Source: an uncultured virus (IMG/VR IMGVR_UViG_3300036716_000812) (taxonomy: Duplodnaviria; Heunggongvirae; Uroviricota; Caudoviricetes). From it: a stretch of 64,000 nt of DNA. This document shows, piece after piece, positions 2,976-63,348 of this stretch. Made by a program: the position numbers and the translations under genes. The notes below the pieces were generated by a model. The model was not told the origin of the DNA and searched no databases. It saw nothing but the letters and a program-made list of their open reading frames with translations. How positions within the stretch are numbered: the stretch's first letter is position 1; every line of letters begins with the position of its first letter. The stretch lies in IMG/VR virus record IMGVR_UViG_3300036716_000812. One strand, 5' to 3'.

Positions 2976-2997
2976 AACTAAACAAAAACAAACAATG

Positions 2998-3022: not shown

Positions 3023-3026
3023 ATAT

Positions 3027-3034: not shown

Positions 3035-3069
3035 GTTATATACAGAGTTAATAAACGGTAGATAATTAT

Positions 3070-3450
3070 ATGCATATTAGAAAACTTGACCCAGAAATTA
3101 ATCCAATCACACTCAAAGATGGTAGAGGTGGAATATTCACATACTATCCAGAACAAGGTGACCCAGTTGTAGAATGGAGTTTCATTGTAACTCTCAAGGG
3201 TTCACAACGCGGACATCACTATCATAAAGAGTTCGATGAATACATCATGTTTGTAGAAGGCAATGGAGTATACTTAGAGTTACAAGACGATGGTACTGAG
3301 GTCCCTACTCCTGTTGCTTCTGGTGACTGTGTATACTTACCAAAGAACATAGCACATACATTCATTCCAATGGCTGATTGTAAGATGGTCGCAATGATAA
3401 CAAAGAAGTGGAACGACTGTGACGAACCTATCACTAGAGCAGGCGAGTAA
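3070..3450 (+). CDS. Cupin-fold NDP-sugar epimerase/isomerase (RmlC/FdtA-like)
   Basis: DGRGGIF, RGHHYHK and AHTF cupin motifs; sugar-gene context. Confidence 0.75.
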   Translation: MHIRKLDPEINPITLKDGRGGIFTYYPEQGDPVVEWSFIVTLKGSQRGHHYHKEFDEYIMFVEGNGVYLELQDDGTEVPTPVASGDCVYLPKNIAHTFIPMADCKMVAMITKKWNDCDEPITRAGE

Positions 3451-6595: not shown

Positions 6596-7490
6596 AATAC
6601 CATCCGTATGTTTCTGTTAATGCTTCTTCTAATGTATAGTTTGGTGTCCATCCTAGTTCTTTCAATCTTGAATTATCAATTGCTCTGTTTTTAATTCCTT
6701 CTGGTCTATCAGTGTTGTACCATAATGTACCTTTGAATCCACTTATCTCTTTCAATGTTTCTGCTAATGTTCTAATAGAAGTTTCAACTCCACTAGCAAC
6801 GTTAACTGTATCATATTTATTATTGTTTAGAATTATATCCATTGCACTCACGGCATCCTTGATATAAATCAAGTCTCTACTTTGATTACCGCTTCCCCAT
6901 ATTTCAATCTGCTCATGGTCTTCTTTGACTGCTGTAACAAACTTTTGCATCAATGCACCAATTACGTGTGCGTGTTCGCCAGTTCTGTCACCGGGTCCAA
7001 ACATATTAGAGTTGATTGCAGTTCGCCAATGCGTTCCTGCTTTTTCATTCTTTGCTCTACATTGATACATGCCCATTAACTTTGGCAATGCTGTTGGCAA
7101 ATATGTTTTGTATGGTTCGCCGTTCATCAATTGGTCTTCAGTGTACGGTTGACTTCCTTCAGCAGGATAACTACAAGTGCTTCCTTGTAGTAGCACTCTA
7201 TCTATTCCAAACTCAGAACATACATTGAATATATTATTCTGAATAGTTAAATTCTTTATCATCAGTTCATAAGCAAAATCTAAATCTTCTTGCAGACCAC
7301 CAACAGTAGCCGCATTGATTACTACGTGAGTTGGTAATCCATATGTCTTGTTCAGTCTGTCGAATTCTGCATGTGTACTAGTTGCATCACTGTAATCTAC
7401 GGTGTCAGTGTTACCGCCCATAGCGTTTCTAACTACTGTGTTGTAGTGTGACCCTACTAATCCTCGATTGCCTGCTATATAATATTTCAT
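6582..7490 (-). CDS. fcl: GDP-L-fucose synthase-like epimerase/reductase with an atypical active site
   Basis: AGNRGLVGS, AATVGG, GSTCSYP, NMFGPGD, HVIGAL, IWGSG..SRDLIY; the YxxxK Tyr appears replaced by Thr. Confidence 0.8.
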   Translation of the reverse strand: MKYYIAGNRGLVGSHYNTVVRNAMGGNTDTVDYSDATSTHAEFDRLNKTYGLPTHVVINAATVGGLQEDLDFAYELMIKNLTIQNNIFNVCSEFGIDRVLLQGSTCSYPAEGSQPYTEDQLMNGEPYKTYLPTALPKLMGMYQCRAKNEKAGTHWRTAINSNMFGPGDRTGEHAHVIGALMQKFVTAVKEDHEQIEIWGSGNQSRDLIYIKDAVSAMDIILNNNKYDTVNVASGVETSIRTLAETLKEISGFKGTLWYNTDRPEGIKNRAIDNSRLKELGWTPNYTLEEALTETYGWYYDNT

Positions 7491-14502: not shown

Positions 14503-15694
14503 GAGTAATCATTCCTTTAAATTCTGGTAGATAGTCTTCAATATTTTGTTTTCGTATCTCATCTAAATTACGTGTATATTCTTTTGCTTGTTCCCATTTA
14601 TTGGGTTTATCTGGTCCACCGAACATAGTTTTTAGTTCATCAAGTTTCCATTTATCAAATACATCTTCGAAACTCTTATGAATTTTGTCACGCATCTCTT
14701 TTGGTAATACAGCAGGAGATAAGATATCTGGGTCGTATACATAATTGTGATGTACGAAAGTTCCATACTTCTTATTGAATGCTATGTAGAAATCACCCAA
14801 TGTACTGTAGTTCATCCACGAAACTGTCTGTGTAATGTCCATTTCAAAGCCTTCGTTTTTTAGGCGGAGAAAGTTTTTCTCAACATCGTTCCATTTTGTG
14901 GGATAGCGGATGTAGTGGTTTCTATCACCTAAGTCATCTATGCTACAACTTATTTTAACATGGTCAAACTTCTTCCATAAGTCTATAACTTTCTCATTCA
15001 TTAATGTCATATTAATATTATACCACAACTTGATATCAGTTTTGCCTAATTCAACAAGTCGTTCTAAGAACGCAAAGTGTTCTTTGATTAACATCGGTTC
15101 GCCACCATTAATGTAAAAAGTTTTAACGTTATCACAGTGTTGTAGTAAGTCTTCCCAAAATCCCTCACGTTCTGGCCATCTGAAGCCTTCCATTGTGTTA
15201 TAATCTGTCAACTGAAACGTAGTTGCTTTCTGTAACGCATCATAATCATTTCTCCATTTACTACTAGAAGCAGGATTACAAGTACGACAAGCAACGTTAC
15301 AAGTGTTGCCTAGACGTAGTTCTACAAATTCTAATTGTACATCTTTCATATAGCCTGTATTATCTGTTACTTCTCTCGCAACATCTATAGTATACTCTGG
15401 ATAGTTTTTGATTTCTTCTACACGTTTTGAGTTCATACCCTTGGCTTCTTCTGCGTAGCAACGCAAACAGGCTTTGGGTTTTTTGCCATCTAATACTTCT
15501 AGTCTTGCTTTCTTGTAACTATCACTGTTCATTGTGTCGTGTACAGTGTCGTGGTTTAGATTATAAAATCTATCACCATCACGTGAACTACTCAACGCAT
15601 GGCGATGGTCAGCAACACAACAATGTGTTACTCCGCCATGAGGATGCGTAGCAAGATGTTGAAACAACAATGGGCAGAAAGTATCACTCATCAA
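14495..15694 (-). CDS. Radical SAM protein with N-terminal twitch-like Cys domain
   Basis: CPLLF..THCC..CLRC, then CNVACRTC, GGEP, SID. Confidence 0.85.
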   Translation of the reverse strand: MMSDTFCPLLFQHLATHPHGGVTHCCVADHRHALSSSRDGDRFYNLNHDTVHDTMNSDSYKKARLEVLDGKKPKACLRCYAEEAKGMNSKRVEEIKNYPEYTIDVAREVTDNTGYMKDVQLEFVELRLGNTCNVACRTCNPASSSKWRNDYDALQKATTFQLTDYNTMEGFRWPEREGFWEDLLQHCDNVKTFYINGGEPMLIKEHFAFLERLVELGKTDIKLWYNINMTLMNEKVIDLWKKFDHVKISCSIDDLGDRNHYIRYPTKWNDVEKNFLRLKNEGFEMDITQTVSWMNYSTLGDFYIAFNKKYGTFVHHNYVYDPDILSPAVLPKEMRDKIHKSFEDVFDKWKLDELKTMFGGPDKPNKWEQAKEYTRNLDEIRKQNIEDYLPEFKGMITHV

Positions 15695-16655
15695 TTAATT
15701 CTACATTAGTTAGTTTAGTACATTTTACCATCTCTTTTATGACTTCTTCTTTGTTCGTTTCAGTCATATCTATTTTTCCTAATATAATTCTTCCAGAAGT
15801 AAACATGGGCAAATTAAAATCATAATATTGGTCAAGATTATTTTCTTTAATCCATGCATCGATATTTGATGTCCAGTGTGGAATGCCAGTCGTCTCTTCC
15901 TTAAGTTCTTCCTTAAGTCGAACCTCAAATGCAGGATGTACTGTTATTTGTTGTTCAAGTCCTTTTGTTTTTACTAATTCTAAATCATTAGTAGCATAGC
16001 ACGTCTGTAAATCTTTACCAACTCTAAAGTAATCAAGTGTTAAGTCACCCCATTCAAAATCTGTTCTGAAATTATTATAGTCTTCGTCTGTTAGATTTTG
16101 TATCTCCGCTCCTCCATGTTGAGTCATTAGACGTGTTGTTCCGAAAAATTCTAAGTTCTCTGGTGGAGACCAATATTCCATAGAATGAACAAGTTGATTT
16201 ATTTCTTCTAAGAGTTGATATATTTCTCCGTTTTGACAGTATTCAGCAGAGTCGTTAACTTCTGGCATATTTGATACATTCTCAAAATACAAATGAAGTG
16301 CGTTAAGTTTTAATATCTCACAATCAAGTGAGTTTTCATTTAATACTAGAGACTCATCAACGTTTGGAATTCCATCCTTTGATTTAATTTGTTCGATTAT
16401 CCAATTCATTCTTTTTTTCATTTTAAAAAAAGTATCAACTTGAACTGATGGATAAAAATTATAAGAACAATTTAATATATCTTCTTTAAGCATTGTGTCC
16501 ATAATTCTAATAAATTTTTCAGTTGTTGAGCAATCTTTTGTTAAATTAAAAACAACAGAATATGTTTGGTCATCCAATTTATATTTTGACAGAGAATGCT
16601 CGCCTCTCACGGGAGGCAACATATCTGTTTGTGATAGTGTCATTTTAAGTTTCAT
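15684..16655 (-). CDS. Hypothetical protein in the radical SAM operon
   Basis: 323-aa ORF overlapping both neighbours; no recognised motif. Confidence 0.6.
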   Translation of the reverse strand: MKLKMTLSQTDMLPPVRGEHSLSKYKLDDQTYSVVFNLTKDCSTTEKFIRIMDTMLKEDILNCSYNFYPSVQVDTFFKMKKRMNWIIEQIKSKDGIPNVDESLVLNENSLDCEILKLNALHLYFENVSNMPEVNDSAEYCQNGEIYQLLEEINQLVHSMEYWSPPENLEFFGTTRLMTQHGGAEIQNLTDEDYNNFRTDFEWGDLTLDYFRVGKDLQTCYATNDLELVKTKGLEQQITVHPAFEVRLKEELKEETTGIPHWTSNIDAWIKENNLDQYYDFNLPMFTSGRIILGKIDMTETNKEEVIKEMVKCTKLTNVELIDE

Positions 16656-18040
16656 TTTTCTTCACCTTTCCACCATTCATATAGTTCATCATCTGCTTTG
16701 TATATGTCAGCAATTGTAATTTTTTCATCTCTAATACTATCTAGTCTATCTTGGTAACCTTTACCATTCTTTTTGCCTTGTATAAATTCTTCTGGATATT
16801 CTTCTTCAAATGAAGGTCTATTTCTCATTTCTCTTAACGTATTTATTAGTGTAAATTGTTTGTGGGTGGCAATAGGTTCCATATACTCAAGTAACTCGTC
16901 AATCTTTCTAGTAAGAATATGTTTCGGCCATGCAAAGGGCGAGAATATAATGTCTGGATGAAACGCAAACATAATCTTTGTTTCTATTCTCACATCAAGT
17001 TCTAAACTTAAATCAAACAAGTCTTTGATACTAAACATACCTGGACCAGTAATCGTTAAGTCAAACAACATCTTATCTTTTCCACCTGGTGCGGCTAGAC
17101 CTTCTTTGAAGTTTTCTAACCATTCTTCCCATACGATTCCTTTACGAATGAACTCAACAATATCACCTGTTCCATCTATACTCGCACACATCAGCCAATC
17201 TTTGAACTGTGGTAGATAGTCAAATAGTTTTTGACCTTTGAATTCAGTACGTGATAGATTAGAATTATATCTTAGATGACAGTTCTTTGCTGAACCATTC
17301 TTGACCATTTCTTCTAATGCCCACCAATGTATATCATACATCAATGGTTCTCCGCCAACCCAATAGATTTCTTCAACTATGCCTTTCGATATTGCTTCTC
17401 TGAATTCTGGTTCAACAACTTCAGTCTGAAACGAGGTCATCTTCTTCTTAACATCTTTCTGCATAAACGGTTGTTGTTCTATGCTCCACATATTATTCTT
17501 TTTCTTTTCTGCTTCCCAAGACGATGACAATTGTTCGCCACACATACGACACTTGAAGTTACATAAGTTTGAGTATCTGTAATCAAATGAAATAACAGGC
17601 ATCGTTGTGTGTCCATCTTCGTCTGTGTTGTCAAATGCTTCTTGTATCTTATCTCTGAATAGAACACCCGTAAACCATTTACGGTATGATGATATACTTA
17701 AGATGTCATCGTTACATACATCACACTGTGATATGCGTTCACCTGCCATAAGTTTCTTGCGGATGTCTTTCATATACGGTGAGTTCCAATGTTCTTCTAA
17801 ACTGACAGGATTAAAATCGTCTGCCAATGTTTTAGATTCTTTTATCTCGCCATACGTCTCATCGTTAGTCGCATCAATATACTGTTTTTGAAATGAGTGT
17901 TCTTCTCTACTTGCACAACACATTCTTCTCTCACCTTGTGGAGATATGTAAGTGTGTGACCACGGTGCCATACAGAAAGTTTTGTTCTCACTTTCTTCAG
18001 CACAACTGCCATCTTTATTCCAAATTGGTACTATTTTCAT
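16652..18040 (-). CDS. Radical SAM protein with N-terminal twitch-like Cys domain
   Basis: CMAPWSH..RMCC..CDVC, CNFKCRMC, GGEP, ASIDG. Confidence 0.85.
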   Translation of the reverse strand: MKIVPIWNKDGSCAEESENKTFCMAPWSHTYISPQGERRMCCASREEHSFQKQYIDATNDETYGEIKESKTLADDFNPVSLEEHWNSPYMKDIRKKLMAGERISQCDVCNDDILSISSYRKWFTGVLFRDKIQEAFDNTDEDGHTTMPVISFDYRYSNLCNFKCRMCGEQLSSSWEAEKKKNNMWSIEQQPFMQKDVKKKMTSFQTEVVEPEFREAISKGIVEEIYWVGGEPLMYDIHWWALEEMVKNGSAKNCHLRYNSNLSRTEFKGQKLFDYLPQFKDWLMCASIDGTGDIVEFIRKGIVWEEWLENFKEGLAAPGGKDKMLFDLTITGPGMFSIKDLFDLSLELDVRIETKIMFAFHPDIIFSPFAWPKHILTRKIDELLEYMEPIATHKQFTLINTLREMRNRPSFEEEYPEEFIQGKKNGKGYQDRLDSIRDEKITIADIYKADDELYEWWKGEEK

Positions 18041-18047
18041 GTCTCTA
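18016..18047. repeat. 32-bp direct repeat, copy 1 (gene junction)
   Basis: tattccaaattggtactattttcatgtctcta, identical to 18791-18822. Confidence 0.95.
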
Positions 18048-18762
18048 ATACGCCAGTCTTTTCATTTCTTTTTCCATGATAAAAAGGAAATTGTTTTGCT
18101 ATCTGTACCACTTCATCGTAGTTGATTATCAATTCTTGTTTTTGTTCTTTTGTTAATTGCTTTTTCATTCCTCGAATATCATTATCAATATCAATAAATT
18201 CATTTAACTTTTCATAAGGATAAAAGGTACAATTATAATCATCTTTATATCTATCTACATACTCATTATAGAGATGGCAATCTCTTTGATATCTCGTACA
18301 TCTAGTCTTGATGTACTCGGTGTCTATATGTCTCTTTTTGTGTTCTCTTATTTTGTTGTCAGTTACAACCCAAGAGTTGTCCATCTCGGCAATCATATGA
18401 CTGCAAATTGTATCTAAACAATCAATTCTAAAACAAAAATGTAAGTCAGTAACATTTAATCCACGAAAAAAATTATCAGTGGCAGATAAATCAAAAGCAC
18501 ATTCATTTTGTTGTTGCGGTTCTTGTTGTGGCGTGCGGTCGACAACACCAGTTGTCACAAGATACTTCATACTCCAATCTTTATAAAACTTAATTTTTTT
18601 AAGTTTATCAAAAAACATTTGATATTCGCATGGATGTATTTCTGTAGAATAAAAATCGTGTTCCCAAAAGTTAAATGGAGGATTACATAGATTTTGTGCA
18701 ACATGGTGTTCCACGACCGTGCTTCCTGTTCTTGCAGTGTAAATGATTAGATGTTTACTCAT
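18037..18762 (-). CDS. Sulfotransferase-like protein (Stf0-like)
   Basis: N-terminal YTARTGST PAPS-binding loop; R..LDTICS..IA; YE motif. Confidence 0.6.
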   Translation of the reverse strand: MSKHLIIYTARTGSTVVEHHVAQNLCNPPFNFWEHDFYSTEIHPCEYQMFFDKLKKIKFYKDWSMKYLVTTGVVDRTPQQEPQQQNECAFDLSATDNFFRGLNVTDLHFCFRIDCLDTICSHMIAEMDNSWVVTDNKIREHKKRHIDTEYIKTRCTRYQRDCHLYNEYVDRYKDDYNCTFYPYEKLNEFIDIDNDIRGMKKQLTKEQKQELIINYDEVVQIAKQFPFYHGKRNEKTGVLET

Positions 18763-18815
18763 TTCGTCTCGTGTTCATCATCGCCGTCACTATTCCAAAT
18801 TGGTACTATTTTCAT
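18759..18815 (-). CDS. 18-aa mini-ORF MKIVPIWNSDGDDEHETK, probably a recombination scar
   Basis: ATGA-type overlaps with both flanking genes; first 8 aa identical to the N-terminus of the 16652-18040 protein. Confidence 0.5.
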   Translation of the reverse strand: MKIVPIWNSDGDDEHETK

Positions 18816-18822
18816 GTCTCTA
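18791..18822. repeat. 32-bp direct repeat, copy 2
   Basis: Identical to 18016-18047. Confidence 0.95.
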
Positions 18823-19999
18823 CTCCACACATTAAAGAACATGCTTTTAATCTTTTATTTCTTATATCTCTGTCTTTAAAACTTTCAATCCATTTGTTTG
18901 TATACATGTCTCCATCAATGATATCTTTCAATGATGTATGATGAAGTGAAATCTTTTCTTTTCCGTAATCATTTATAAAGTTTTTTAATGGTAGTGACAC
19001 TTCACTATTAGCATCATCATAAAAACTAGCAGTGTAACAACAAGGAAAAACTAAACCTGCGTGATTGACCCAAATTTGATTTCTGTCTATTGCTTCGCAT
19101 TGAATATCACATTTACTTAATTTCTTATCATGTTCATTTAGCGGACTGATTAAGTCGACCTCTTTCTTTGTCCAATGTAAGACGTGAGTAGACGACTTTT
19201 CAGATTTCTTTAGTTGTAATTTAATATCTTTAAGATATCCTGAAGTTGACTTAGAACCCATTTCTACTGTGTCATTGAAGACATTTCCAAGTTGTATATC
19301 TTGTCTAGGATTCCAATTTTTTCCTTTAATATCAATCGAAGGTTTAATTGTATATTCAAATATTCCTTCTGTTCCGTAAACATGCATGTTGTTTTCACCA
19401 TCGTCATCTTTATAAAATCCAAATGCTTTCTTTGGAAAGAAAGTTTCAATGCCCAACTCGTTTGACAATTTTCTTGCTTCTTCTATTTGATGTTGGTTGT
19501 GTCTGAATACGAGAAACTCCCACCGTGCTTTTGCACCTGTTGATTTGTAATTCGTCATGGCAGTCATAATTTTATCCCAATAAGTACCTCGGCGATATAT
19601 CCAATTTGTATCTTCAAGACCATCAACACTGAATACTAAAGTTCCATTTTCTTTAAATATTTCACCCAAGTCACGCCAAAACTCTGGGTCTCTTCCACTT
19701 GCGTTTGAGTTCATCTGCATTCTTATATCTGGATTTATAGACTTGAAGTATTGTAAAATAGGTATGAGGTCTGGATTAGTCATAGCATCCCCATAGTTTC
19801 CACACATTCCAAGTTGATGAATCTGTTTAATGAAATCTACTGAGAACCAATCTTTTATATTCTGTAAAGTCATATATGTTTCTGTAAATAATGGATTCTT
19901 TACTCCACCCGAGGCTCTACGACCACATTGTGGACATAGGGCATTACAAAGACTGCTCACTTCTAATTCAAGATGTCTTATGTCTTTATAATCAATCAT
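18812..19999 (-). CDS. Radical SAM protein with C-terminal SPASM/twitch-like domain, paralog of both halves of 12007-14502
   Basis: CNALCPQC, CGNYGD, FSVDGLEDTN, VFPCC, CSLMC; start moved to ATG 19999 (TAATG overlap). Confidence 0.85.
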   Translation of the reverse strand: MIDYKDIRHLELEVSSLCNALCPQCGRRASGGVKNPLFTETYMTLQNIKDWFSVDFIKQIHQLGMCGNYGDAMTNPDLIPILQYFKSINPDIRMQMNSNASGRDPEFWRDLGEIFKENGTLVFSVDGLEDTNWIYRRGTYWDKIMTAMTNYKSTGAKARWEFLVFRHNQHQIEEARKLSNELGIETFFPKKAFGFYKDDDGENNMHVYGTEGIFEYTIKPSIDIKGKNWNPRQDIQLGNVFNDTVEMGSKSTSGYLKDIKLQLKKSEKSSTHVLHWTKKEVDLISPLNEHDKKLSKCDIQCEAIDRNQIWVNHAGLVFPCCYTASFYDDANSEVSLPLKNFINDYGKEKISLHHTSLKDIIDGDMYTNKWIESFKDRDIRNKRLKACSLMCGVET

Positions 20000-21528
20000 T
20001 ACTTTCCTAACGCATCGGTGTCTGTATTCCAACCGCCCACTGTTTCGTGTTCATCATCTCCACCATCATATGCTTTGGTTGTTGCAGGGTCGCCTGCTCT
20101 ATCAACTGATTCAAGTTCTATAGTCTTTGACCTTATATCACTTTCACTTGGCACATCTGCTTCTAATGATTTAAACCACTCTGCTAGTGGTCCAGGAAAC
20201 GTAGATACGAAATCTTTCCCTCTGCGTATGTCATACTGTGCAAAGAATGCCTTGAAATCGTTATACAACTTCGGGGTCTCTGCTGTGTTCTTATGTGGTG
20301 TCTTAACGATATCTAAGTAGTCAATCAATCTACGAACACTTTCTTTCTCACCATCAGTTAGCATTTCTTGTGGGCGTTCACTCATATACCAATTCTCCAA
20401 CACATCTTTATAATGAGTTTTGATTTCTTCTGGTAGTATCGCCGCACTTTGAAAAGATGGAAATCTTAAAATGTTTAACGTCATTGTTGGCGCACGATGT
20501 TCGTATTCTTCACGCAAATCTAACATCTCGTCCATAAACTCTGTGATAGAATTTAGGCAAAGAGAATTGATTGTCATCATCATATGTAATTTAGATACGT
20601 TTGCTTCTTTTAATACACGGTGTATATTTGATTTCCAGTACTCATAGTCTAGTCCGTCACGAATGTACTCACCTTGTACTCCTGTTGCTTCCATACTGGT
20701 GTATATCTCAAGTTTAGGAATATGCCAAGATTCTTTAACAAGTTTGTCAAGAACTTTAGGAGTTTCAGGACACATATTTGAGTTAATAGCAAAACGCATA
20801 TTGCGTCCTCTATTGGGATTATCTTTGAACCATTGAAATAACTTCCACGTGCCTTTGTGCATAATAGGTTCGCCACCCGTGATACGAATTTCTTCTAAGC
20901 AATCTGCTAAGTCACTTTCCCACCACTTATGAAATGCTTGTATGTATGGATTATCTTCTTGTCGTTTTGTTTTAGGTTCGGCATATGGTGCTGTATCTTG
21001 GAAGTGTCCACGACCATCAGATTGTATATTCTGATAACCACCATAATCATTAATGTCTTTCACCCATGCTGTACTAAATGCAGGATTACAATAAGAACAT
21101 TTAAAATTACAAGCCCTATCAAATGATATTTCTAGTGTACGCAAGTTTACGTTATTATCCCATGGCATATCTACTGATTTTTCGATATCTTTATCTGTGA
21201 AGATTTCTGTTTTGAATACTCTATCAGAGATATGGTCTTTACCCATGTCTTCAACTTTCCAACAATACTCACACTCTGCTGGTCTTTCACCTTCTTGCAT
21301 AAGTTTACGCATCTTCTTCTTATGACTGGTGTTATGAATTGCCGATGGATTATCTTTCAGTTCTTCAAGTGGAATCCAATGTCCTGGTGGGTGATGACAA
21401 CTTGCAGTCTGTCCATGTCCTAACCAGATGGTAGCATTATACCACTTAGCGGCACAATATGATTTACTAATCGGGTCGATGATTCGTTCTTTATATTGAT
21501 GTAATGTTTCTGCGTTTTTTCTAGCCAT
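19999..21528 (-). CDS. Radical SAM protein with N-terminal Cys/His auxiliary domain
   Basis: CAAKW..SCHHP..CEYCW, CNFKCSYC, TGGEP. Confidence 0.85.
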   Translation of the reverse strand: MARKNAETLHQYKERIIDPISKSYCAAKWYNATIWLGHGQTASCHHPPGHWIPLEELKDNPSAIHNTSHKKKMRKLMQEGERPAECEYCWKVEDMGKDHISDRVFKTEIFTDKDIEKSVDMPWDNNVNLRTLEISFDRACNFKCSYCNPAFSTAWVKDINDYGGYQNIQSDGRGHFQDTAPYAEPKTKRQEDNPYIQAFHKWWESDLADCLEEIRITGGEPIMHKGTWKLFQWFKDNPNRGRNMRFAINSNMCPETPKVLDKLVKESWHIPKLEIYTSMEATGVQGEYIRDGLDYEYWKSNIHRVLKEANVSKLHMMMTINSLCLNSITEFMDEMLDLREEYEHRAPTMTLNILRFPSFQSAAILPEEIKTHYKDVLENWYMSERPQEMLTDGEKESVRRLIDYLDIVKTPHKNTAETPKLYNDFKAFFAQYDIRRGKDFVSTFPGPLAEWFKSLEADVPSESDIRSKTIELESVDRAGDPATTKAYDGGDDEHETVGGWNTDTDALGK

Positions 21529-22927
21529 TGCTTGTCTCTATTTTAAATACTCTTGTTGGTGTCAAACTATCATACCATTCTGATAATATTGGACTAAATG
21601 TTGTTCTTAAATCTTTGCCTCGTCTTTTGTCATATTGTGTATAGAATGATTTGAAATCTCCTTGGCGTTTCTTTAATACTTCTTCTGAATGAGGTATACG
21701 AATCGCTTTATCCAAGTGGTCAATTATTCTGGTTACATGTATGCCTTCTTGGTCTAATAAATCTTCTTTTCTTTTTTCATGCCATACTATTAATTTATCA
21801 TTATAATATTTTATAATATTTGTTGGTAAAGTACTAATACTCTGAAACTCAGGATTATACACTGGATTCAATGATAATAAAATTGAACTACCACTATATT
21901 CTTCTCTAAGTTCTAGGATATCATCCATAAAATCTGTTATAGAATCTAAAGACAATGCGTTGATAGTCATCATTATGCCTAGTTTATTTACTTTAGATTG
22001 TTCTAATAATCTCTTAACGTTATTTAACCAAACTTCATAATTCATTCCATCGCGGATATAATCTGCTTGTATTCCGAAGGCTTCACAACTTGTAAACATT
22101 TCAAATCCAGGAACATATTCAATTGCGTCTAATAATCTTTGAAATGTTTTTTCTTTTTCTGGAACAAGATTTGAATTAATCGCAAATCTCATTCTTTTAC
22201 CACGCTCTGGATTATTCTTAAACCAGTCGAGTAATTTCCACACACTAGGATGCATAATAGGTTCACCACCTGTTACTCTAATTCCATCAAGTGTGTCTGC
22301 TAGTCCCCCATCTTCTTCCCACCATTTCCAAAATGCTTGAATATATGGATTATCTTCATCTCTCTTTGTTACATTGGCAGCCCAATCGGATGTATGTGTA
22401 TAATGTTCTCTTTTATCTGATTGAATATTTTCATAAGGTCCATTATCTTTTATATCTTTTACCCATGTCGTGCTAAATGTGGGTCCACAATACGAACATG
22501 CAAGGTTACATGCTCTATCAAATGATACTTCGAGTGTTCTTAGAAGTGCGTTATCACTCCATTTTCTTAAAGGTATTGCATCTAAATCTGTTTCTTCATA
22601 CATCAGTGTTTTGAAAACCCGTTCAGAAATTTTATCTACACCCTTGGCTTCTACTTCCCAACACTTATAACATTCAGATGGTTGTTCACCATTGAGCATC
22701 ATTTTACGCATCTTCTTCTTGTGGCTTGTATTGTGTATTGCTGATGGATTTTCTTTTAATTCTTCTATTGAAATATCATGTGGAGATGGAAGATGACAAC
22801 TAGTCGTTTGTCCATGTCCTAACCAGATAGTAGCACCATGCCATTTCGCACCACAAAACGTGGAACTTTTCGAATCCATAACTCGTGTTTTGTATTCTAA
22901 AAATGACTCTGTTGAACTTTTTCTCAT
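21521..22927 (-). CDS. Radical SAM protein, paralog of 19999-21528
   Basis: CGAKW..SCHLP..CYKCW, CNLACSYC, TGGEP. Confidence 0.85.
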   Translation of the reverse strand: MRKSSTESFLEYKTRVMDSKSSTFCGAKWHGATIWLGHGQTTSCHLPSPHDISIEELKENPSAIHNTSHKKKMRKMMLNGEQPSECYKCWEVEAKGVDKISERVFKTLMYEETDLDAIPLRKWSDNALLRTLEVSFDRACNLACSYCGPTFSTTWVKDIKDNGPYENIQSDKREHYTHTSDWAANVTKRDEDNPYIQAFWKWWEEDGGLADTLDGIRVTGGEPIMHPSVWKLLDWFKNNPERGKRMRFAINSNLVPEKEKTFQRLLDAIEYVPGFEMFTSCEAFGIQADYIRDGMNYEVWLNNVKRLLEQSKVNKLGIMMTINALSLDSITDFMDDILELREEYSGSSILLSLNPVYNPEFQSISTLPTNIIKYYNDKLIVWHEKRKEDLLDQEGIHVTRIIDHLDKAIRIPHSEEVLKKRQGDFKSFYTQYDKRRGKDLRTTFSPILSEWYDSLTPTRVFKIETSNG

Positions 22928-24492
22928 TGTGTGTATTGCTCTTCGTATTCTTCTTTTGCTTCGTTCCAGAAGTCTGTCATCTCTGGAAATGTGGCCAAGA
23001 AATCTAAGCCCCTACGTTTGTCATACTGTGTAAAATATTCGTAAAATTTTATTAGTTTGTCACTTAAATCTTCAGAAGACATATTATCACCTTCTTTAGC
23101 CCATGCTAAATCTCTTTCTAATTTTAATACCTCATAATTCTTAAAGCCTGTATACTTGCGACCATACAAATCATTTTCTAAAACATTCTCTTTCATAAAG
23201 TTGATGTTCTCTTCAAGCACATCTAACATATCACCATCTGCTAATTGCAGAGTCATCCAATCTGGGTATCTCAAGTATGGAGTATCAAACCAAATTCTTT
23301 GTCTCTTTTTTCGAACAAAAGGAGTATGAACAACACCATCTCTGTCTGGTGGTTGAACAACTTTATCTTCTTGGTTTTCATAACCGAATTCTTCACGCAA
23401 GTCTAATATCATTTGTAAGAAACCTCGAAGATTTGGAATACTAAGTAACTGAAATGTGTTAATGAACGATATTTCAGTCCCTGTTGTTTCACTTAGAACT
23501 CGTCTACAGTTTTGATACATTTTCTCAAAATCAAGACCGTCACGCATGTATTCTGCTTGTTTGCCTACTCCATCTACACTTACGTATAAACTAAAATGTT
23601 TACATGCTGGTGCAACGTACCAGTGATTACCACTGTCTGGATTAAACTTATCTGTGTCTTCCCATACACGAACTTCTTCAATTGCTTTCAATTTGTCTAT
23701 AAACTTATCAAATAACGCATCTTGTGGTGGACACATATTTGAAGTTATACTTAAATCTAGTGTTGCGTTTGGATTTTCGTTTACATAATCTAATACTTTG
23801 AATGTGTTGTTGTCCATTAGTGGCTCACCGCCAGTCATACGAAAAACTTTTAAATCTTGATACACTTTAGGAAACCATTCCCAAAATGCGGTGATGTATG
23901 GATTATCTCTACGAGAGACTTCTAACGGCATCATTCCTGTCTTACGTAGATAGTCTATGTCATTGTGACCTGTTCCGTTTGAGAAACGAAATCCGCCATG
24001 TTCTTTTACGTCATCTTCCCATGCAGTAGACAAGTGAGGTGAGCAATAACTACATTTAAAGTTACATGCTTGGTTAAAATTGACTTCGACATATCGTGGA
24101 GTAATGTCGTGGTCCCAAGGATTGTTTACAACTTCATCCCATGCGTCTTTTACCCACCATTCACTTGAGCGATAGTGTCTATCGCTTAATCTACCACCCT
24201 CTGGTGGATTCGGAGCATCTTCTACATTCCAACAGTACTGACATCCTTCAGGACGAGTACCCTCTTTCATTTGTTTTCGTTCTTGTAATTTGAACTGTGT
24301 ATTATGTAATGCGTTCGGATTCGCTTTTAGTTCATCTAATGGAATCGCATGTGTTGGCGGATGATAACAACTGTGTGTTCTTCCTTGCGGCAAGTGTAAA
24401 CTTACCTGAAGCCATTTCGCCATGCACATAGACGGTGACAATGCATTTAAATTGTCTCGTGTGACAACAGCATCATCGTCATAATTAGACAT
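22924..24492 (-). CDS. Radical SAM protein of the same subfamily
   Basis: CMAKW..SCYHP..CQYCW, CNFKCSYC, TGGEP. Confidence 0.85.
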   Translation of the reverse strand: MSNYDDDAVVTRDNLNALSPSMCMAKWLQVSLHLPQGRTHSCYHPPTHAIPLDELKANPNALHNTQFKLQERKQMKEGTRPEGCQYCWNVEDAPNPPEGGRLSDRHYRSSEWWVKDAWDEVVNNPWDHDITPRYVEVNFNQACNFKCSYCSPHLSTAWEDDVKEHGGFRFSNGTGHNDIDYLRKTGMMPLEVSRRDNPYITAFWEWFPKVYQDLKVFRMTGGEPLMDNNTFKVLDYVNENPNATLDLSITSNMCPPQDALFDKFIDKLKAIEEVRVWEDTDKFNPDSGNHWYVAPACKHFSLYVSVDGVGKQAEYMRDGLDFEKMYQNCRRVLSETTGTEISFINTFQLLSIPNLRGFLQMILDLREEFGYENQEDKVVQPPDRDGVVHTPFVRKKRQRIWFDTPYLRYPDWMTLQLADGDMLDVLEENINFMKENVLENDLYGRKYTGFKNYEVLKLERDLAWAKEGDNMSSEDLSDKLIKFYEYFTQYDKRRGLDFLATFPEMTDFWNEAKEEYEEQYTQ

Positions 24493-58125: not shown

Positions 58126-58302
58126 ATGAGTACTAACGCAGAAATCGTAGAAGCAATGGAAACTTATCTAGCGGAAAATGCCAAGTTTGAAGAAAAGGGT
58201 GTTAAAGCATCTGCGGCTCGTGCCAGAAAAGCACTAGGCGATATTGGAAAACTTTCAAAGGTTCGTAGAAAAGAAATCCAAGACAAAAAGAACAACATGT
58301 AA
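58126..58302 (+). CDS. Small basic histone H1-like (Hc1-family) protein, 58 aa, absent from the ORF track
   Basis: MSTNAEIVEAMETYLAENAKFEEKGVKASAARARKALGDIGKLSKVRRKEIQDKKNNM; AGGAG RBS. Confidence 0.75.
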   Translation: MSTNAEIVEAMETYLAENAKFEEKGVKASAARARKALGDIGKLSKVRRKEIQDKKNNM

Positions 58303-60690: not shown

Positions 60691-60719
60691 TTGACTTTGG
60701 GTTGCCAGTATGTTAGTAT
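60691..60719 (+). promoter_or_regulatory. Sigma70 promoter for the candidate sRNA
   Basis: TTGACT-17 nt-TAGTAT with extended TG and an upstream A-tract. Confidence 0.7.
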
Positions 60720-60727
60720 ATTATAAT

Positions 60728-60898
60728 CAACGGGTGCCTATGTCTCCTCTAAACCTCTCTCATCGACATAGACCTTGTTGCTTCACTCTTTAAAAGAAGA
60801 GTGGGTGGGTTAGACCTTAACGTACCACCATAAAAAGCACAAAAAGGAAACGTAAGGCGGGAAACCCAGTAGTAGAAATATTACTGGGTTTTTCTTTT
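60728..60898 (+). ncRNA. Candidate ~170-nt structured small RNA
   Basis: Own promoter and terminator, no ORF; hairpins CTATGTC/GACATAG, CACTCTT/AAGAGTG, GGTGG-GTTA/TAAC-CCACC. Confidence 0.6.
60862..60898 (+). terminator. Intrinsic terminator
   Basis: AAACCCAGTAGTA-GAAA-TATTACTGGGTTT stem (one G-U pair) followed by a T-rich tract. Confidence 0.85.
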
Positions 60899-60926
60899 GC
60901 CTAAATACAAATATTAGAGGAGTTAA

Positions 60927-61181
60927 ATGATGTCACCCCAATCAATTGAAAGAGTAAAATGGCTCGCCACGTTTATGTTCGTGTGTGCGGGAACATTGAT
61001 ATCTTTAAACTTACCACAATCTAAGTACGCATTTCCATTATTTGCATCAGGACATATAATTGCTATCTACGTCTTTACAATACTTAAAGACAAGCCGTTA
61101 ATTGTACAAAATGTATTTTTCTTATGTATTGATGTGATAGGAATATATCAGTGGGTATTAGCGCCTATATTTTTTCTTTAA
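60927..61181 (+). CDS. Small membrane protein (about three hydrophobic segments)
   Basis: 84 aa, hydrophobic; strong AGAGGAG RBS; CTAAATA upstream. Confidence 0.65.
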   Translation: MMSPQSIERVKWLATFMFVCAGTLISLNLPQSKYAFPLFASGHIIAIYVFTILKDKPLIVQNVFFLCIDVIGIYQWVLAPIFFL

Positions 61182-61602
61182 CGCTGTTTAGATACTCAGT
61201 AAGAATTTTCGAACTTCCCACTCGTACATTGATAATACCATTATAGTACTCATCTGTTTCAAGCACTCTACGGTCAAATTGTTCTTTGGCTTCTACATAA
61301 CTTAATGCGCCACGACTCGGGCAATAATGTAGAATCTCACGGGAAAATTTATCGGGACCTAATTTTTTTACGTCCGCATTCAAATGGTCAGAAGAACCCC
61401 AATAAGTTCTCCAATCACTTTCTTTATAACCACGTCTCTTGTTCTTTCTTCCTTTAAGAGGTGGTTTAGTGGTTTTAAATCTTGCTAACTTCTTACCTAT
61501 GTATTTTCTATCATTCGTAAGGTTCGTAATAAGATATACAAATCCCTCAACATTCTCAGGTAATTCATTTACAACTTCATTGTTATATGTCCATTCACTC
61601 AT
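61165..61602 (-). CDS. Minimal GIY-YIG (Seg-like) endonuclease
   Basis: GFVYLITN..RKYIGKK, YWGSS, FSREIL, E..YYNG; no C-terminal DNA-binding domain. Confidence 0.8.
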   Translation of the reverse strand: MSEWTYNNEVVNELPENVEGFVYLITNLTNDRKYIGKKLARFKTTKPPLKGRKNKRRGYKESDWRTYWGSSDHLNADVKKLGPDKFSREILHYCPSRGALSYVEAKEQFDRRVLETDEYYNGIINVRVGSSKILTEYLNSVKEKI

Positions 61603-61609
61603 GGTGTTC

Positions 61610-62212
61610 TCATTTTAATAGGTCTAAAGACCTAATATCTTCGGAAATTTCTTTTCGTTCCACTCAAAGAACATTTCCTTGATATTTCTTTTTTCCATTT
61701 AATATTATTTATTTTAATTACTTGTTCGGTTTGGAAGACACAATTGCCCATCCACTGGGCAACTGCTAATGAAACTTGTTCTTGCTCATCAGATTCTATG
61801 TCTAAGTTAGCCACTAGCAATGGCGAGGTCGGTTGACGATTCCCTCATAACTTAGTATTGCGTCTTTCGACTCAACGGCACTTTGAATAATCCACATAGA
61901 ATAAAATATCATCAAAGTTGGTAGTGTTTTTAACCTACCAGCGGTTTGTACATTTCTGTACAGTAAATACTAGTCATTCGATACCTTTAGAGTAACGAAT
62001 GTTAAAATACGAAATAAAATGTGTGGTTAACGAGAAGCAGTGTCGGATTTCACCCAACTTGTCTGAACGTATGTATAATATACGCCCTCAATCCCGAGTC
62101 GGCATCCCGACTAACAGTTCCACTATGTATTGTTTTATTGTAATCATTATTAGCCTTTGGGGATTTATATTAGAATTAAAAATTGTTTTTGAATCGATTT
62201 GTATTAGTTATG
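61610..62212 (-). ncRNA. Candidate large (~600 nt) ornate structured RNA
   Basis: About 12 hairpins; GAAA loops and G-U pairs that work on the minus strand; two possible pseudoknots; own promoter; no credible ORF. Confidence 0.65.
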
Positions 62213-62218
62213 TTGAAC

Positions 62219-62247
62219 ATACTAACATAGTGGAAAAGGGATGTCAA
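62219..62247 (-). promoter_or_regulatory. Sigma70 promoter for the large RNA / GIY-YIG transcript
   Basis: TTGACA-17 nt-TAGTAT with extended TG and an upstream A-tract. Confidence 0.8.
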
Positions 62248-62275
62248 CCCTTTTTGTAACTTTTTTTGTATTTTT

Positions 62276-62509
62276 TTATAAAATAGGTGTTCCAGCGTTT
62301 TTACTGAGTTCAAAGTTCTCAGAAACAATCTCATTTAGATATCTGATATGGTTTGCAGGCATGTTGTGCAGTTCAGATATACTGACGCCCCCTCTCATAT
62401 ACCAGGTTAGTTTATACAGTGATTTGTGTAGAGTGTCAAGTGATTTATTATAAGACTCTTGTTTCTCTAATATTTCGGCTTCGCCGGCAGTCTTCAGCCA
62501 GCGGAGGAA
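62276..62509 (-). CDS. -1-frame extension of the gp26-like gene (77 aa; WYMRGG domain, gp51-like)
   Basis: Open frame FLRWLKTAGEAEILEKQESYNKSLDTLHKSLYKLTWYMRGGVSISELHNMPANHIRYLNEIVSENFELSKNAGTPIL with no ATG in its first half. Confidence 0.7.
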   Translation of the reverse strand, partial: FLRWLKTAGEAEILEKQESYNKSLDTLHKSLYKLTWYMRGGVSISELHNMPANHIRYLNEIVSENFELSKNAGTPIL

Positions 62510-62515
62510 AAATTT
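62482..62515 (-). other. Programmed -1 ribosomal frameshift signal
   Basis: In-frame A_AAT_TTT heptamer (62515-62509), 5-nt spacer, CGCTGGC/GCCGGCG stem-loop (62503-62482). Confidence 0.75.
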
Positions 62516-63348
62516 ACAGGATTCATATCAAACACAACTTCTTCTTTGTGTTCACATGCCTCACAAGTAAATTCAAATTTCGAAATTTCAGATAAGTTTG
62601 GCACAACACTATTAACAGTGTCGTTTACTTTTTTCACAATATTTGCTGGTACATTGTCCATGAATTCTGTGATAGAGTCTGAATCAATCACAACTGTATC
62701 GGGTGTTTCTATTCTGTCAATCGCACTAATTAGTAAATCTACGTTCTGTTTTGATACTTTTCTGAAACTGATGGCAAATTGTCTTGCCATCTCCAGTTCT
62801 TCACGGTCATCCTCTGGATTTTCCTGGGCGGCTGTAATAGATGACAATATTCTAGCCTGCTCAACTTCCATCAGTGCTACTCTAGTTAGACTGTCTAATT
62901 TCGGTGGAGTTACAAAAATTTTAAGGTCTTCATATTCAATTGGCGGAATATCACTGATATCTGGAAACTTTTCCAGAATGTGATTTATGTCTATGTTATA
63001 ATCGGCTTGCTCTTTACAGTTCGAACAACTGTGGGTGTGTTGGATTTCTTTGCCATATGTTGCGTATTTGATTGCTAAGAAAATTAGTTCCGCATCAACA
63101 TTACATAAGTTTCTTGGATTTGGTATGGCAGGCACACAACTTTTAATAAGATTGATTAAAGCCTCTCCGTTTAATAATTCGTCAGGATTTTGCATTGATA
63201 TTTCATCAATAGCAGTCATCGGAAGTATAGGCAACTCGTCCAATACAGTTTTGTCTATTTCTGGATTAAATCTGCCACCAGTCGGAATTTGTACATATAT
63301 TCCCGGTTTACGAAAATATTTGGATAATGGGTTCTCATTGGTGTTCAT
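62494..63348 (-). CDS. Baseplate hub / tail assembly chaperone (T4 gp26-like)
   Basis: NPLSKYFRKP..LPMTAIDEI..LLNG..SCVP..D..FLAIKYATYG..CSNC, C-terminal CEAC..MNPVNF. Confidence 0.8.
   Translation of the reverse strand: MNTNENPLSKYFRKPGIYVQIPTGGRFNPEIDKTVLDELPILPMTAIDEISMQNPDELLNGEALINLIKSCVPAIPNPRNLCNVDAELIFLAIKYATYGKEIQHTHSCSNCKEQADYNIDINHILEKFPDISDIPPIEYEDLKIFVTPPKLDSLTRVALMEVEQARILSSITAAQENPEDDREELEMARQFAISFRKVSKQNVDLLISAIDRIETPDTVVIDSDSITEFMDNVPANIVKKVNDTVNSVVPNLSEISKFEFTCEACEHKEEVVFDMNPVNFSSAG

What the first reader, a model, noticed from the sequence alone, without database searches (positions are those of the whole stretch)
61165..62247. Large ornate RNA co-transcribed with a minimal GIY-YIG nuclease: candidate new ribonucleoprotein system
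Seen: a strong promoter (62247-62219, minus) is followed by ~600 nt with no credible ORF in an otherwise gene-dense genome, then the GIY-YIG start at 61602. The minus strand forms hairpins at 62097-62112, 62068-62084, 62042-62058 (GAAA-containing loop), 61975-62001, 61947-61962 (GAAA), 61919-61940, 61881-61917, 61858-61875 (GAAA), a multibranch domain at 61802-61855, then 61741-61765, 61643-61678 and 61619-61634, plus two loop-mediated long-range pairings (61894-61902 with 61793-61801, 9 bp; 61968-61974 with 61813-61819). The first ~90 nt are A-rich and look unstructured. I could not find RNase P, tmRNA or group I/II intron hallmarks. The 145-aa nuclease has only the catalytic domain plus a K/R-rich insert (KTTKPPLKGRKNKRRGYK) and lacks the DNA-recognition domain of homing enzymes. 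Inference: the RNA may scaffold or guide the nuclease (by analogy with HEARO/omega-RNA and IscB), or be a new ribozyme or large phage RNA of the GOLLD/ROOL kind.
Basis: partly seen in the sequence, partly recalled or inferred. Interest (0 to 1): 0.9.

Follow-up and report, generated by a model that had tools for sequence, protein, structure and literature searches.

The report
Large phage RNA beside swappable nuclease
An uncultured giant marine phage carries a real, heavily folded RNA of about 600 bases that no database names; a small DNA-cutting enzyme gene always sits next to it but appears to be an exchangeable neighbour, not a proven partner.

Summary
Window 61617-62215 (minus strand) has no conserved ORF, folds far better than shuffles, and aligns with 47 other distinct sequences from viral contigs.

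It does not match any Rfam family. A model of its 3' core finds diverged copies in other phage lineages. In some of these the 5' part is the Rfam motif Polynucleobacter-1 (RF01718). By eye, the same modules also occur in accessory chromosomal elements of Polynucleobacter.

Every RNA locus found by an RNA-only pattern and long enough to judge has a small co-oriented nuclease gene beside it. The nuclease is either a GIY-YIG or a PD-(D/E)XK enzyme, and it lies downstream here but upstream in the other lineages.

The nuclease behaves as a movable cassette:
- It is swapped precisely for the unrelated fold.
- It is 79-86% identical between phages whose gp46 is only 53-58% identical.
- It occurs in phage Melnitz, where the 3'-core model found no RNA copy.

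Best reading: a resident RNA gene of unknown job, new to the databases, flanked by a homing-type nuclease. A guide or scaffold role is not supported, but the constant adjacency keeps it open.

The parts
62219..62247 (-). sigma-70-type promoter-like site (TTGACA, 17 nt, TAGTAT, TG upstream of the -10). The -35 hexamer lies in the loop of a small hairpin (62233-62255).
   Evidence: Conserved in most close relatives (alignment, leaders). The same TTGACA-N17-TAGTAT is seen by eye at the nuclease 3' end in L058. Promoter function is inferred, not shown.
62124..62212 (-). A/U-rich, G-poor unstructured leader with three CUAAUA repeats (62207-62202, 62173-62168, 62153-62148)
   Evidence: All 40 distinct leaders of this RNA type have 3-6 CTAATA repeats. 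The only two exact CTAATAYAAA sites in the 64-kb window are here.
62023..62123 (-). 5' domain: closing helix GUGG/CCAC, hairpin 62097-62112, invariant helix CGGGA/UCUCG enclosing hairpins 62068-62084 and 62042-62058
   Evidence: helices 1-4. Helices 1 and 3 never vary, so they are neither supported nor contradicted. Model R2 of this domain finds no consistent match in the other lineages.
61975..62001 (-). hairpin with invariant loop CUCUAAAGG
   Evidence: helix 5; 3 of 6 pairs change on both sides
61970..61973 (-). 5' strand (CUAG) of pseudoknot 2; pairs with the loop at 61814-61817
   Evidence: helix 6: 100% of cells paired; one pair switches U-A (31) to C-G (17)
61881..61962 (-). three variable hairpins (61947-61962, 61919-61940, 61881-61917). 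The loop of the last holds the 5' strand of pseudoknot 1 (61894-61902).
   Evidence: helices 7, 8. The helix at 61881-61917 is poorly aligned by MAFFT; I judged it by eye in each lineage.
61736..61882 (-). conserved 3' core: GAAA hairpin (61858-61875), three-way junction (61802-61855) with invariant loop GAAUCGYCAACCGA, 3' strand of pseudoknot 1 (61793-61801), variable hairpin, and hairpin 61741-61765 (UUGCCC...GGGCAAUUG)
   Evidence: Model R1 scores 166.3 bits here. On the model-fitted alignment of 48 matches, 27 of 32 pairs change on both sides, and 97.5% of cells pair against 84.4% in shuffles. That alignment leans towards the structure.
61680..61735 (-). A/T-rich spacer, variable in length and sequence between relatives
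   Evidence: alignment columns about 450-540
61619..61678 (-). 3' module: long hairpin with GAGYG-GAAA-like tip (61643-61678) and an invariant terminal hairpin AGGUCU-UUA-GACCU (61619-61634), 16 nt before the nuclease start
   Evidence: helix 14. The module is kept when the next gene is a PD-(D/E)XK nuclease or a radical-SAM gene. Equivalent hairpins are seen by eye after the RNA core in the other phage lineages and in Polynucleobacter.
61165..61602 (-). 145-aa GIY-YIG nuclease, catalytic domain only
   Evidence: PF19835, E 1.5e-35. AlphaFold model has mean pLDDT 78.5. Best solved fold is the I-TevI catalytic domain 1ln0 (Foldseek prob 0.96, TM 0.61 on the target, E 0.17). No PDB sequence match at E<=1.
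62494..63348 (-). upstream gene: baseplate hub protein (context, not part of the RNA)
   Evidence: PF12322, E 1.6e-16; phrog_150 baseplate hub

Best explanation
Window 61617-62215 (minus strand) is a resident RNA gene of a clade of uncultured marine and freshwater myoviruses. CheckV figures imply genomes of about 330-370 kb.

From a sigma-70-type promoter it would give a transcript of about 600 nt. Its parts, in order, are an unstructured leader with CUAAUA repeats, a core of about 390 nt with two pseudoknots, an A/U-rich spacer and two terminal hairpins.

The 3' core is shared with RNAs of other phage lineages. In some of those the 5' part is the Rfam motif Polynucleobacter-1. The window RNA is therefore a diverged branch of a larger, undescribed RNA family.

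I infer that the RNA works on its own, as a folded trans-acting RNA of the orphan large-RNA kind. What it does is not known.

The GIY-YIG gene is an I-TevI-type catalytic-domain nuclease that behaves as a movable cassette. It lands beside the conserved RNA gene, on either side and always co-oriented, and here it is probably read through from the RNA's promoter. The most likely reason is the one that places homing endonucleases next to conserved RNA genes: an invariant sequence makes a dependable target or landing site.

Shown: the RNA, its structure, its family and the adjacency statistics. Inferred: the transcript, its independence of the nuclease, and the homing logic.
For: RNA structure: z = -5.09. 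RNAalifold gives 73 pairs, 25 with compensatory changes. Curated structure with both pseudoknots: 97.4% of cells paired against 90.5% in shuffles, 0 of 500. 3' core: 27 of 32 pairs covary.

Family: R1 finds full-length matches at a constant place after the nuclease in 17 of 31 'after gp46' loci, and at a constant offset and strand in 18 of 43 loci fetched with an RF01718-derived pattern. RF01718 is at or above gathering score in L062-L065 and in 19 of 20 pattern loci tested. The L062 RNA aligns over 435 nt, E 3.5e-24, with pattern loci.

Independence from the nuclease:
- Exact ORF-for-ORF swap between GIY-YIG and PDDEXK_15.
- In loci of the 'after gp46' lineage the nuclease is 79-86% identical to the window's, while gp46 is 53-58% and the hub 29-31% identical.
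- Melnitz has the nuclease at 79% identity but no R1 match in its whole record.
- A promoter-like TTGACA-N17-TAGTAT lies between nuclease and RNA in L058 (by eye).
- The same RNA 3' module precedes non-nuclease genes in other lineages.
Against: Occupancy is total, which a purely selfish, sporadic homing gene does not predict. Of 76 loci found with the RNA core pattern, 68 have the GIY-YIG gene downstream and 7 the PD-(D/E)XK gene; 1 has too little DNA to tell. Of 43 loci found with the RF01718-derived pattern, 37 have GIY-YIG upstream and 5 PD-(D/E)XK; 1 is a false positive.

The nuclease is single-copy in records of 259 and 285 kb. It has no DNA-binding domain, unlike known Seg and I-TevI enzymes (recalled).

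In Polynucleobacter the related RNA sits before a 188-aa tyrosine recombinase that is catalytic domain only, in 11 of 15 loci. So a DNA enzyme accompanies the RNA there too.

No transcript ends were seen. Contigs from RNA libraries cover the region colinearly but could derive from DNA. No function for the RNA follows from any result.
Confidence: 0.4

Rival explanations
1. Functional pair. The RNA scaffolds, guides, regulates or is processed by the small nuclease, which lacks any DNA-recognition domain. In bacteria the partner would be the small tyrosine recombinase. The RNA would supply the target recognition that the minimal enzymes lack.
For: A small co-oriented nuclease lies beside the RNA in 75 of 76 and 42 of 43 loci found by RNA-only patterns. 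The two exceptions are one truncated locus and one false positive. The adjacency survives a change of gene order, with the RNA before the nuclease here and after it elsewhere. The nuclease is single-copy per genome. All three enzyme kinds are catalytic-domain-only: the 145-aa GIY-YIG, the 170-181-aa PDDEXK_15, and a 188-aa recombinase whose whole length matches the Phage_integrase catalytic domain.
Against: Two unrelated folds would have to fit the same RNA. A nearly identical nuclease sits beside very different RNAs. It also occurs in Melnitz, where R1 finds no RNA. I did not identify a variable guide-like segment. No known RNA-guided system uses GIY-YIG or PD-(D/E)XK domains of this size (recalled).
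Confidence: 0.2
2. Replication-origin RNA. The transcript would be a structured pre-primer that acts on its own DNA locus, in the manner of ColE1 RNA II. The CTAATA repeats would be protein-binding iterons, the A/T-rich spacer the unwinding region, and the terminal hairpins loading sites. Nucleases and recombinases would cluster there because it is a replicon module shared by phages and integrated elements.
For: Layout: promoter, repeats, folded RNA, A/T-rich spacer, hairpins. The element is shared between phages and accessory chromosomal elements of Polynucleobacter: 10 of 101 species genomes, 0-2 copies each. It lies next to gp46/gp47-type recombination genes. An earlier agent reached this reading on a relative (e1-5735907); that is a lead, not evidence.
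Against: Two covarying pseudoknots and invariant loops go well beyond what RNA II needs (the comparison is recalled). No initiator gene was identified. No replication data exist. The strand of the element differs between lineages, with no sign of a matching change in gene orientation.
Confidence: 0.2
3. Cis-regulatory leader. The whole element would be a long 5' UTR that times or limits translation of the downstream, potentially toxic nuclease. This would resemble the RBS-masking hairpins of T4 intron and seg endonuclease genes.
For: The invariant terminal hairpin ends 16 nt before the start codon. The 3' module precedes the downstream ORF in every locus of this RNA type, whatever that gene is. 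The 2010 paper's table rated Polynucleobacter-1 as probably cis-regulatory (passage read).
Against: In the other lineages the RNA follows the nuclease. In several loci (for example L165) no same-strand ORF of 70 aa or more follows the RNA. A 390-nt core with two pseudoknots, better conserved than the neighbouring proteins, is far more than an RBS mask needs.
Confidence: 0.07
4. Ribozyme or degenerate intron. The RNA would be a self-splicing or self-cleaving element that hosts endonuclease genes, as group I introns do.
For: Pseudoknotted, junction-rich core with invariant unpaired nucleotides. The neighbours are endonucleases of two families that are known from group I introns (recalled).
Against: No match to any intron or ribozyme family of Rfam at E<=10 in the window or in ten relatives. 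No split host gene flanks the element. A 3170-nt contig from an RNA library is colinear across the whole element. Its one joint there (61657-61710) replaces 52 letters with 72 and lies in the variable spacer, so it is not a splice.
Confidence: 0.08

Closest known systems
Polynucleobacter-1 RNA motif (Rfam RF01718; Weinberg et al. 2010, PMC2864571)
   Same: In sister phage lineages the RNA that shares this window's 3' core and terminal hairpins has RF01718 as its 5' part. It occupies the same place, between gp46 and the baseplate hub, with the same nuclease beside it. Both are orphan RNAs of unknown function.
   Different: The window RNA does not match RF01718, even at E<=10. Its 5' domain model finds nothing in RF01718-bearing loci. 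RF01718 covers 141 nt; the RNA here is about 500-600 nt. The 2010 table lists 16 sequences from Burkholderiales, fresh water and estuary. I saw that table row and the seed alignment only, and no text on the motif.
Large ornate orphan RNAs of phages and bacteria (GOLLD, ROOL)
   Same: Size of about 500-800 nt, many helices and pseudoknots, carried by phages, function unknown (recalled).
   Different: No Rfam match to either family at E<=10. No tRNA genes nearby; there are none in the whole window. The constant nuclease neighbour is not a feature I recall for those RNAs.
Free-standing GIY-YIG homing endonucleases of T4-type phages next to conserved genes (seg genes; segB in the tRNA and stable-RNA cluster)
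   Same: GIY-YIG catalytic domain with an I-TevI-like fold. Intergenic and co-oriented. Horizontally mobile and exchangeable with another nuclease family at the same site. It sits beside a conserved RNA gene.
   Different: Only 145 aa, with no DNA-binding domain. Single copy per genome and present at every RNA locus examined. Homing was not tested.
HEARO / omega-RNA with IscB or TnpB (RNA-guided nucleases)
   Same: A structured RNA next to a small nuclease gene on a mobile background.
   Different: No Rfam match. The nuclease belongs to a different superfamily. The nuclease occurs without the RNA and is swapped for another fold. I did not identify a guide segment.
ColE1 RNA II pre-primer
   Same: A structured transcript of about 550 nt from its own promoter, running into an A/T-rich region followed by hairpins (comparison recalled; layout).
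   Different: No sequence or family match, and no evidence of priming. This RNA has pseudoknots with covariation.

Membership tests
Polynucleobacter-1 RNA (RF01718) | Match to the Rfam covariance model at or above the gathering score (37 bits) | tested here: not met
   No match in the window at gathering score or at E<=10 in 60800-62600. L062-L065 score 63.4 bits and 19 of 20 pattern loci score 69.8-95.8 bits.
Polynucleobacter-1 RNA (RF01718) | Homology of the rest of the RNA (3' core, terminal hairpins) with RNAs that carry RF01718 | tested here: met
   R1, built from this RNA type, matches RF01718-bearing loci full length at a constant offset and strand: L062-L065 at 20.8 bits and 18 of 43 pattern loci at 12.6-19.2 bits. 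The scores are weak; the support is their positional consistency.
Group I intron | Match to the intron model, a split host gene, and a spliced form | tested here: not met
   No Rfam intron match at E<=10. The flanks are a complete ORF plus promoter on one side and a convergent ORF on the other. RNA-library contigs are colinear; contigs cannot prove the absence of splicing.
GOLLD / ROOL large RNAs | Match to the Rfam models | tested here: not met
   No match.
Omega-RNA / HEARO-type guide RNA systems | IscB or TnpB-type nuclease, obligate RNA-nuclease linkage, and a variable guide segment | tested here: not met
   The nuclease is GIY-YIG. Melnitz has the nuclease but no R1 match. The nuclease is swapped for PDDEXK_15. 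I did not analyse a guide segment formally.
Free-standing GIY-YIG homing endonuclease (Seg-like) | GIY-YIG catalytic domain | tested here: met
   PF19835, E 1.5e-35. Fold nearest the I-TevI catalytic domain.
Free-standing GIY-YIG homing endonuclease (Seg-like) | C-terminal DNA-binding domain | tested here: not met
   145 aa, of which the Pfam domain covers 4-124. All 19 aligned homologues have similar lengths.
Free-standing GIY-YIG homing endonuclease (Seg-like) | Horizontal mobility and patchy presence among related phages | tested here: inconclusive
   Mobility is supported: nuclease identity 79-86% against gp46 53-58%, a cassette swap, and presence in Melnitz. Presence is not patchy: some nuclease sits at every RNA locus.
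Free-standing GIY-YIG homing endonuclease (Seg-like) | Site-specific cleavage of the nuclease-less allele, and gene conversion | not testable with these tools
   Needs enzyme assays or co-infection crosses.

The most novel reading that the evidence does not exclude
One ornate RNA family of about 500-600 nt spans giant phages and small accessory elements of bacteria. Everywhere it is paired with a minimal, catalytic-domain-only DNA enzyme: a GIY-YIG nuclease, a PD-(D/E)XK nuclease, or a 188-aa tyrosine recombinase. The boldest reading is that the RNA is the shared targeting or scaffolding subunit that lets interchangeable minimal enzymes act on specific DNA. That would be a new kind of RNA-dependent DNA-cutting and DNA-joining system. 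The lineage-specific 5' domains, one of which is the Polynucleobacter-1 motif, would act as specificity modules.
Probability: 0.15. Interest if true: 0.95.

Novelty: new variant of a known kind. Interest (0 to 1): 0.72.

Why it matters
Large, highly structured RNAs without a known job are rare, and several have turned out to be ribozymes or unusual assemblies.

This one is well supported by covariation. It occurs in well over a hundred viral contigs and in bacterial accessory elements. It also shows that a 141-nt Rfam orphan motif from 2010 is only the front part of a much larger RNA in some lineages.

Its unbroken association with small nucleases or recombinases gives a concrete, testable question: is the RNA a target, a neighbour or a partner? 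An answer for partner would define a new RNA-protein DNA-targeting system. An answer for target would make it a clear case of homing enzymes exploiting a conserved RNA gene in giant phages.

In the held library, Polynucleobacter-1 appears only in the 2010 paper. A search on 'structured RNA', T4-like, homing endonuclease and noncoding listed nothing on this RNA. The searchable supplements of the 2023 catalogue of viral structured RNAs did not contain its core motif.

Tried and rejected
- Own assembly: not held. The nearest record, G001, is a 32-kb fragment without the locus.
- Cultured phages: blastn of the region against the phage collection matched only the nuclease part. The RNAs of the two other lineages gave no match.
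- Expression: I laid four RNA-library runs on 60700-62700. They are contigs, cover coding and non-coding parts alike, may derive from DNA, and show no ends. They give no evidence either way on transcription or processing.
- CUAAUA repeats as a genome-wide promoter motif: rejected. CTAATAYAAA with up to one mismatch occurs 25 times against 23.8 expected, and the only exact sites are the two in the leader.
- Closing helix CAUA/UGUG proposed by RNAalifold: set aside. The same 3' bases extend the 61741-61765 hairpin, and that alternative has one compensatory C-G to U-A change.
- Homology of the 5' domain to RF01718: model R2 gave one stray match in 31 loci.
- R1 on Polynucleobacter chromosomal loci: one stray match in 19 loci. 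The shared 3' modules there rest on my reading of the alignment, not on a score.
- DUF6641 in four phage records: none found, but the controls did not ring either, so this says nothing.
- Supplements of PMC10690425: the core motif and two contig numbers were not found in 6 files. Files 1, 2 and 4 were not searched and may hold it.
- tRNA or tmRNA: none in the window.
Full report
**What is there.** On the minus strand, the baseplate-hub gene (62494-63348; PF12322) and a short overlapping ORF ending at 62276 are followed by a promoter-like site. This is TTGACA-17-TAGTAT with TG before the -10, at 62247-62219. About 600 nt without a conserved ORF come next, then the start of a 145-aa GIY-YIG gene at 61602 (PF19835, E 1.5e-35). 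The stretch 61603-62215 folds at -146.1 kcal/mol against -118.4 +/- 5.4 for 20 shuffles, z = -5.09. Rfam 15 has no match at gathering score in the whole window. It has nothing relevant at E<=10 around the locus.

**Relatives and structure.** A scan of viral contigs for relatives of the nuclease kept 80 loci of 585 confirmed. Of these, 49 carry the RNA region directly upstream at 67-100% identity. A second scan, with a 21-nt pattern from the RNA core alone, gave 76 loci. From all loci I took 119 complete RNA copies, 48 of them distinct, and aligned them.

- RNAalifold predicts 73 pairs, 25 with compensatory double changes.
- On a curated structure of 82 pairs in 14 helices, 97.4% of cells pair against 90.5% in shuffles.
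- On that structure 32 pairs change on both sides against 19.7 +/- 1.8; 0 of 500 shuffles reach either value.
- Partners slid by 1-3 columns give at most 8 such pairs.
- One measure, further pair types, was not above the shuffles (198 of 500).

Two helices (GUGG/CCAC and CGGGA/UCUCG) never vary and so remain unproven. Three variable helices align poorly with MAFFT. In 61894-61902 with 61793-61801, 7 of 9 pairs covary. The second is a 4-bp pairing, 61970-61973 with 61814-61817, with one U-A (31 sequences) to C-G (17) switch. The 5' leader is unstructured and holds three CUAAUA repeats. All 40 distinct leaders have 3-6 of them. The motif is not enriched elsewhere in the window.

**The phage.** The window encodes gp25, gp6-like and lysozyme baseplate parts, ClpP, and gp46- and gp47-like nucleases. 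The hub protein's nearest cultured relatives are giant phages such as Phosso and Atu_ph07, at 33.5% identity or less. Related contigs of 96-285 kb are rated 26-86% complete by CheckV, which implies genomes of about 330-370 kb.

**The RNA family is wider than this RNA type.** A covariance model of the 3' core (R1; window 61736-61882) scores 135-169 bits on the loci it was built from. It also finds full-length matches of 12-30 bits in 17 of the 31 nuclease loci that lack the upstream RNA. Those matches always lie a few hundred bases downstream of the nuclease, on the same strand. Three of the 14 loci without a match end before that place.

In these loci the order is: gp46-like gene, a small ORF, the nuclease, a promoter-like TTGACA-N17-TAGTAT in L058, CTAATA repeats, the folded core, an A/T-rich spacer, a GAGCG-tipped hairpin plus a terminal hairpin, then a non-nuclease ORF or none. 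The hub gene lies on the other strand (by eye). On the model-fitted alignment of both types (48 matches), 27 of 32 pairs covary; that alignment leans towards the structure.

**Link to a known motif.** In one of these lineages (L062-L065) the part of the RNA that precedes the 3' core matches Rfam RF01718, Polynucleobacter-1. The match scores 63.4 bits against a gathering score of 37.

- A pattern taken from that match fetched 43 further viral loci.
- RF01718 is above gathering score in 19 of 20 of them tested.
- R1 matches 18 of the 43 at a constant offset and strand.
- The L062 RNA aligns with several of them over 435 nt, E 3.5e-24.

A model of the window type's 5' domain (R2) finds nothing consistent in 31 loci of the other lineages. 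So the 3' core is common to the family, while the 5' domains differ or have diverged too far to detect.

The 2010 paper that defined Polynucleobacter-1 gives it one table row: probably RNA, probably cis-regulatory, Burkholderiales, fresh water and estuary, 16 sequences. I saw that row and the seed alignment only. No other paper in the held library names the motif.

**Bacterial copies.** The same pattern in bacterial genomes finds Polynucleobacter and related chromosomes. Their alignment shows, by eye, that the RF01718 part is followed by the same kinds of 3' modules as in the phages. R1 itself does not detect them. The RNA is the best-conserved part between two copies in one genome.

It lies between a divergent DUF6641 gene and, in 11 of 15 loci, a 188-aa tyrosine recombinase consisting of the catalytic domain only. 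RF01718 occurs in only 10 of 101 Polynucleobacter species genomes sampled, with 0-2 copies. In bacteria it therefore belongs to accessory, probably mobile, DNA.

**The nuclease.** Its AlphaFold model (mean pLDDT 78.5) is nearest the I-TevI catalytic domain (1ln0, prob 0.96, E 0.17). It has no PDB sequence relative at E<=1 and no extra domain.

*Results in favour of a link with the RNA:*
- Of the 76 core-pattern loci, 68 have this nuclease downstream; two of those have a radical-SAM gene in between.
- Seven have a 176-181-aa PDDEXK_15 nuclease instead, and one is too short to judge.
- Of the 43 RF01718-pattern loci, 37 have the GIY-YIG gene (50-58% identical) immediately upstream and 5 have a 170-aa PDDEXK_15-like gene.
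- The remaining one is a false positive.
- The nuclease is single-copy in records of 259 and 285 kb.

*Results against dependence on the RNA:*
- L091 (PD-(D/E)XK) and L110 (GIY-YIG) are homologous up to the end of the RNA and again from the end of the nuclease ORF, with only the ORF exchanged.
- In loci of the 'after gp46' lineage the nuclease is 79-86% identical to the window's, while gp46 is 53-58% and the hub 29-31% identical. The RNAs of the two lineages match only by covariance model. The nuclease has therefore moved between lineages by itself.
- Phage Melnitz (141,552 bp) has the nuclease at 79% identity beside ribonucleotide-reductase genes. It has no R1 match anywhere and no RF01718 match within 3 kb.

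**Reading.** I take the RNA to be a resident gene of these phages. I take the nuclease to be a mobile, exchangeable neighbour that settles beside it on either side, most likely for the reason homing enzymes and integrases favour conserved RNA genes. This accounts for the swaps, the horizontal transfer and the RNA-less Melnitz copy. It does not easily explain why no RNA locus is empty, why the enzymes lack DNA-binding domains, or why a recombinase accompanies the RNA in bacteria.

Those three points keep two rivals alive. The other is an origin-type element whose transcript acts on its own locus. What the RNA does is not known. No transcript ends could be seen, because the only RNA data available were contigs.

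**Earlier notes of this scan.** Three describe the same nuclease next to a large folded RNA in other genomes and also judged the RNA independent of the nuclease. I used them as leads only. As shown to me, none mentions the link to RF01718.

Noticed in passing
window 62276-62500 (minus strand): A reading frame open from at least 62500 to 62276 overlaps the stop of the baseplate-hub gene in another frame and ends '...AGTPIL'. Relatives have 93-96-aa ORFs in the same place (L025:2088-2369, L127:1784-2074). It may be a small overlapping gene or a frameshift extension of the hub protein. Pfam and PHROGs had no match for the L025 ORF.
   Followed up: partly
window 12007-24492 (minus strand): Eight consecutive ORFs with radical-SAM hits, three of them also with SPASM hits, follow sugar-nucleotide modification genes at 60-7490. 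This is an unusually large radical-SAM cluster for a phage.
   Followed up: no
window 58126-58302 (plus strand): A 58-aa ORF matches the histone H1-like protein Hc1 family over its whole length (PF07432, E 1.9e-9). It lies directly after the gp46-like gene.
   Followed up: no
window 62233-62255: The -35 hexamer of the RNA's promoter sits in the loop of a small hairpin (AAAGGG-TTGACAT-CCCTTT), which the scan also lists as terminator-like on the plus strand. It recalls the promoter-stem-loop cassettes said to flank shuffled genes in T4-type phages (recalled, not checked).
   Followed up: no
L047:1796-3004, L112, L141; Melnitz locus L157:1585-2793: In three loci of this RNA type a 402-aa radical-SAM protein lies between the RNA and the nuclease. 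Melnitz has a 402-aa ORF just upstream of its copy of the nuclease. The two genes may travel together.
   Followed up: partly
L210:440-3209 and other Polynucleobacter loci (L204-L239): A conserved module consists of a DUF6641 gene, an RNA of about 490 nt (RF01718 plus a 3' extension), and a 188-aa tyrosine recombinase that is catalytic domain only. It is present in about one in ten Polynucleobacter species genomes, sometimes twice.
   Followed up: partly
L223:2-2068 (minus strand of the stored locus): In one Polynucleobacter locus the gene after the RNA is a 689-aa protein. By eye its N-terminus carries a GIY...YIG-like motif, but Pfam gave no match.
   Followed up: no
G004:C1:89483-89604 (locus L243): A second, weak match of the 3'-core model (16 bits, E 0.01) lies 41 kb from the main copy in a 99-kb relative. 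It could be chance or a second, diverged copy.
   Followed up: no
L080:2561-2634: A tRNA gene (71.6 bits) lies about 1.7 kb downstream of the nuclease in one relative.
   Followed up: no
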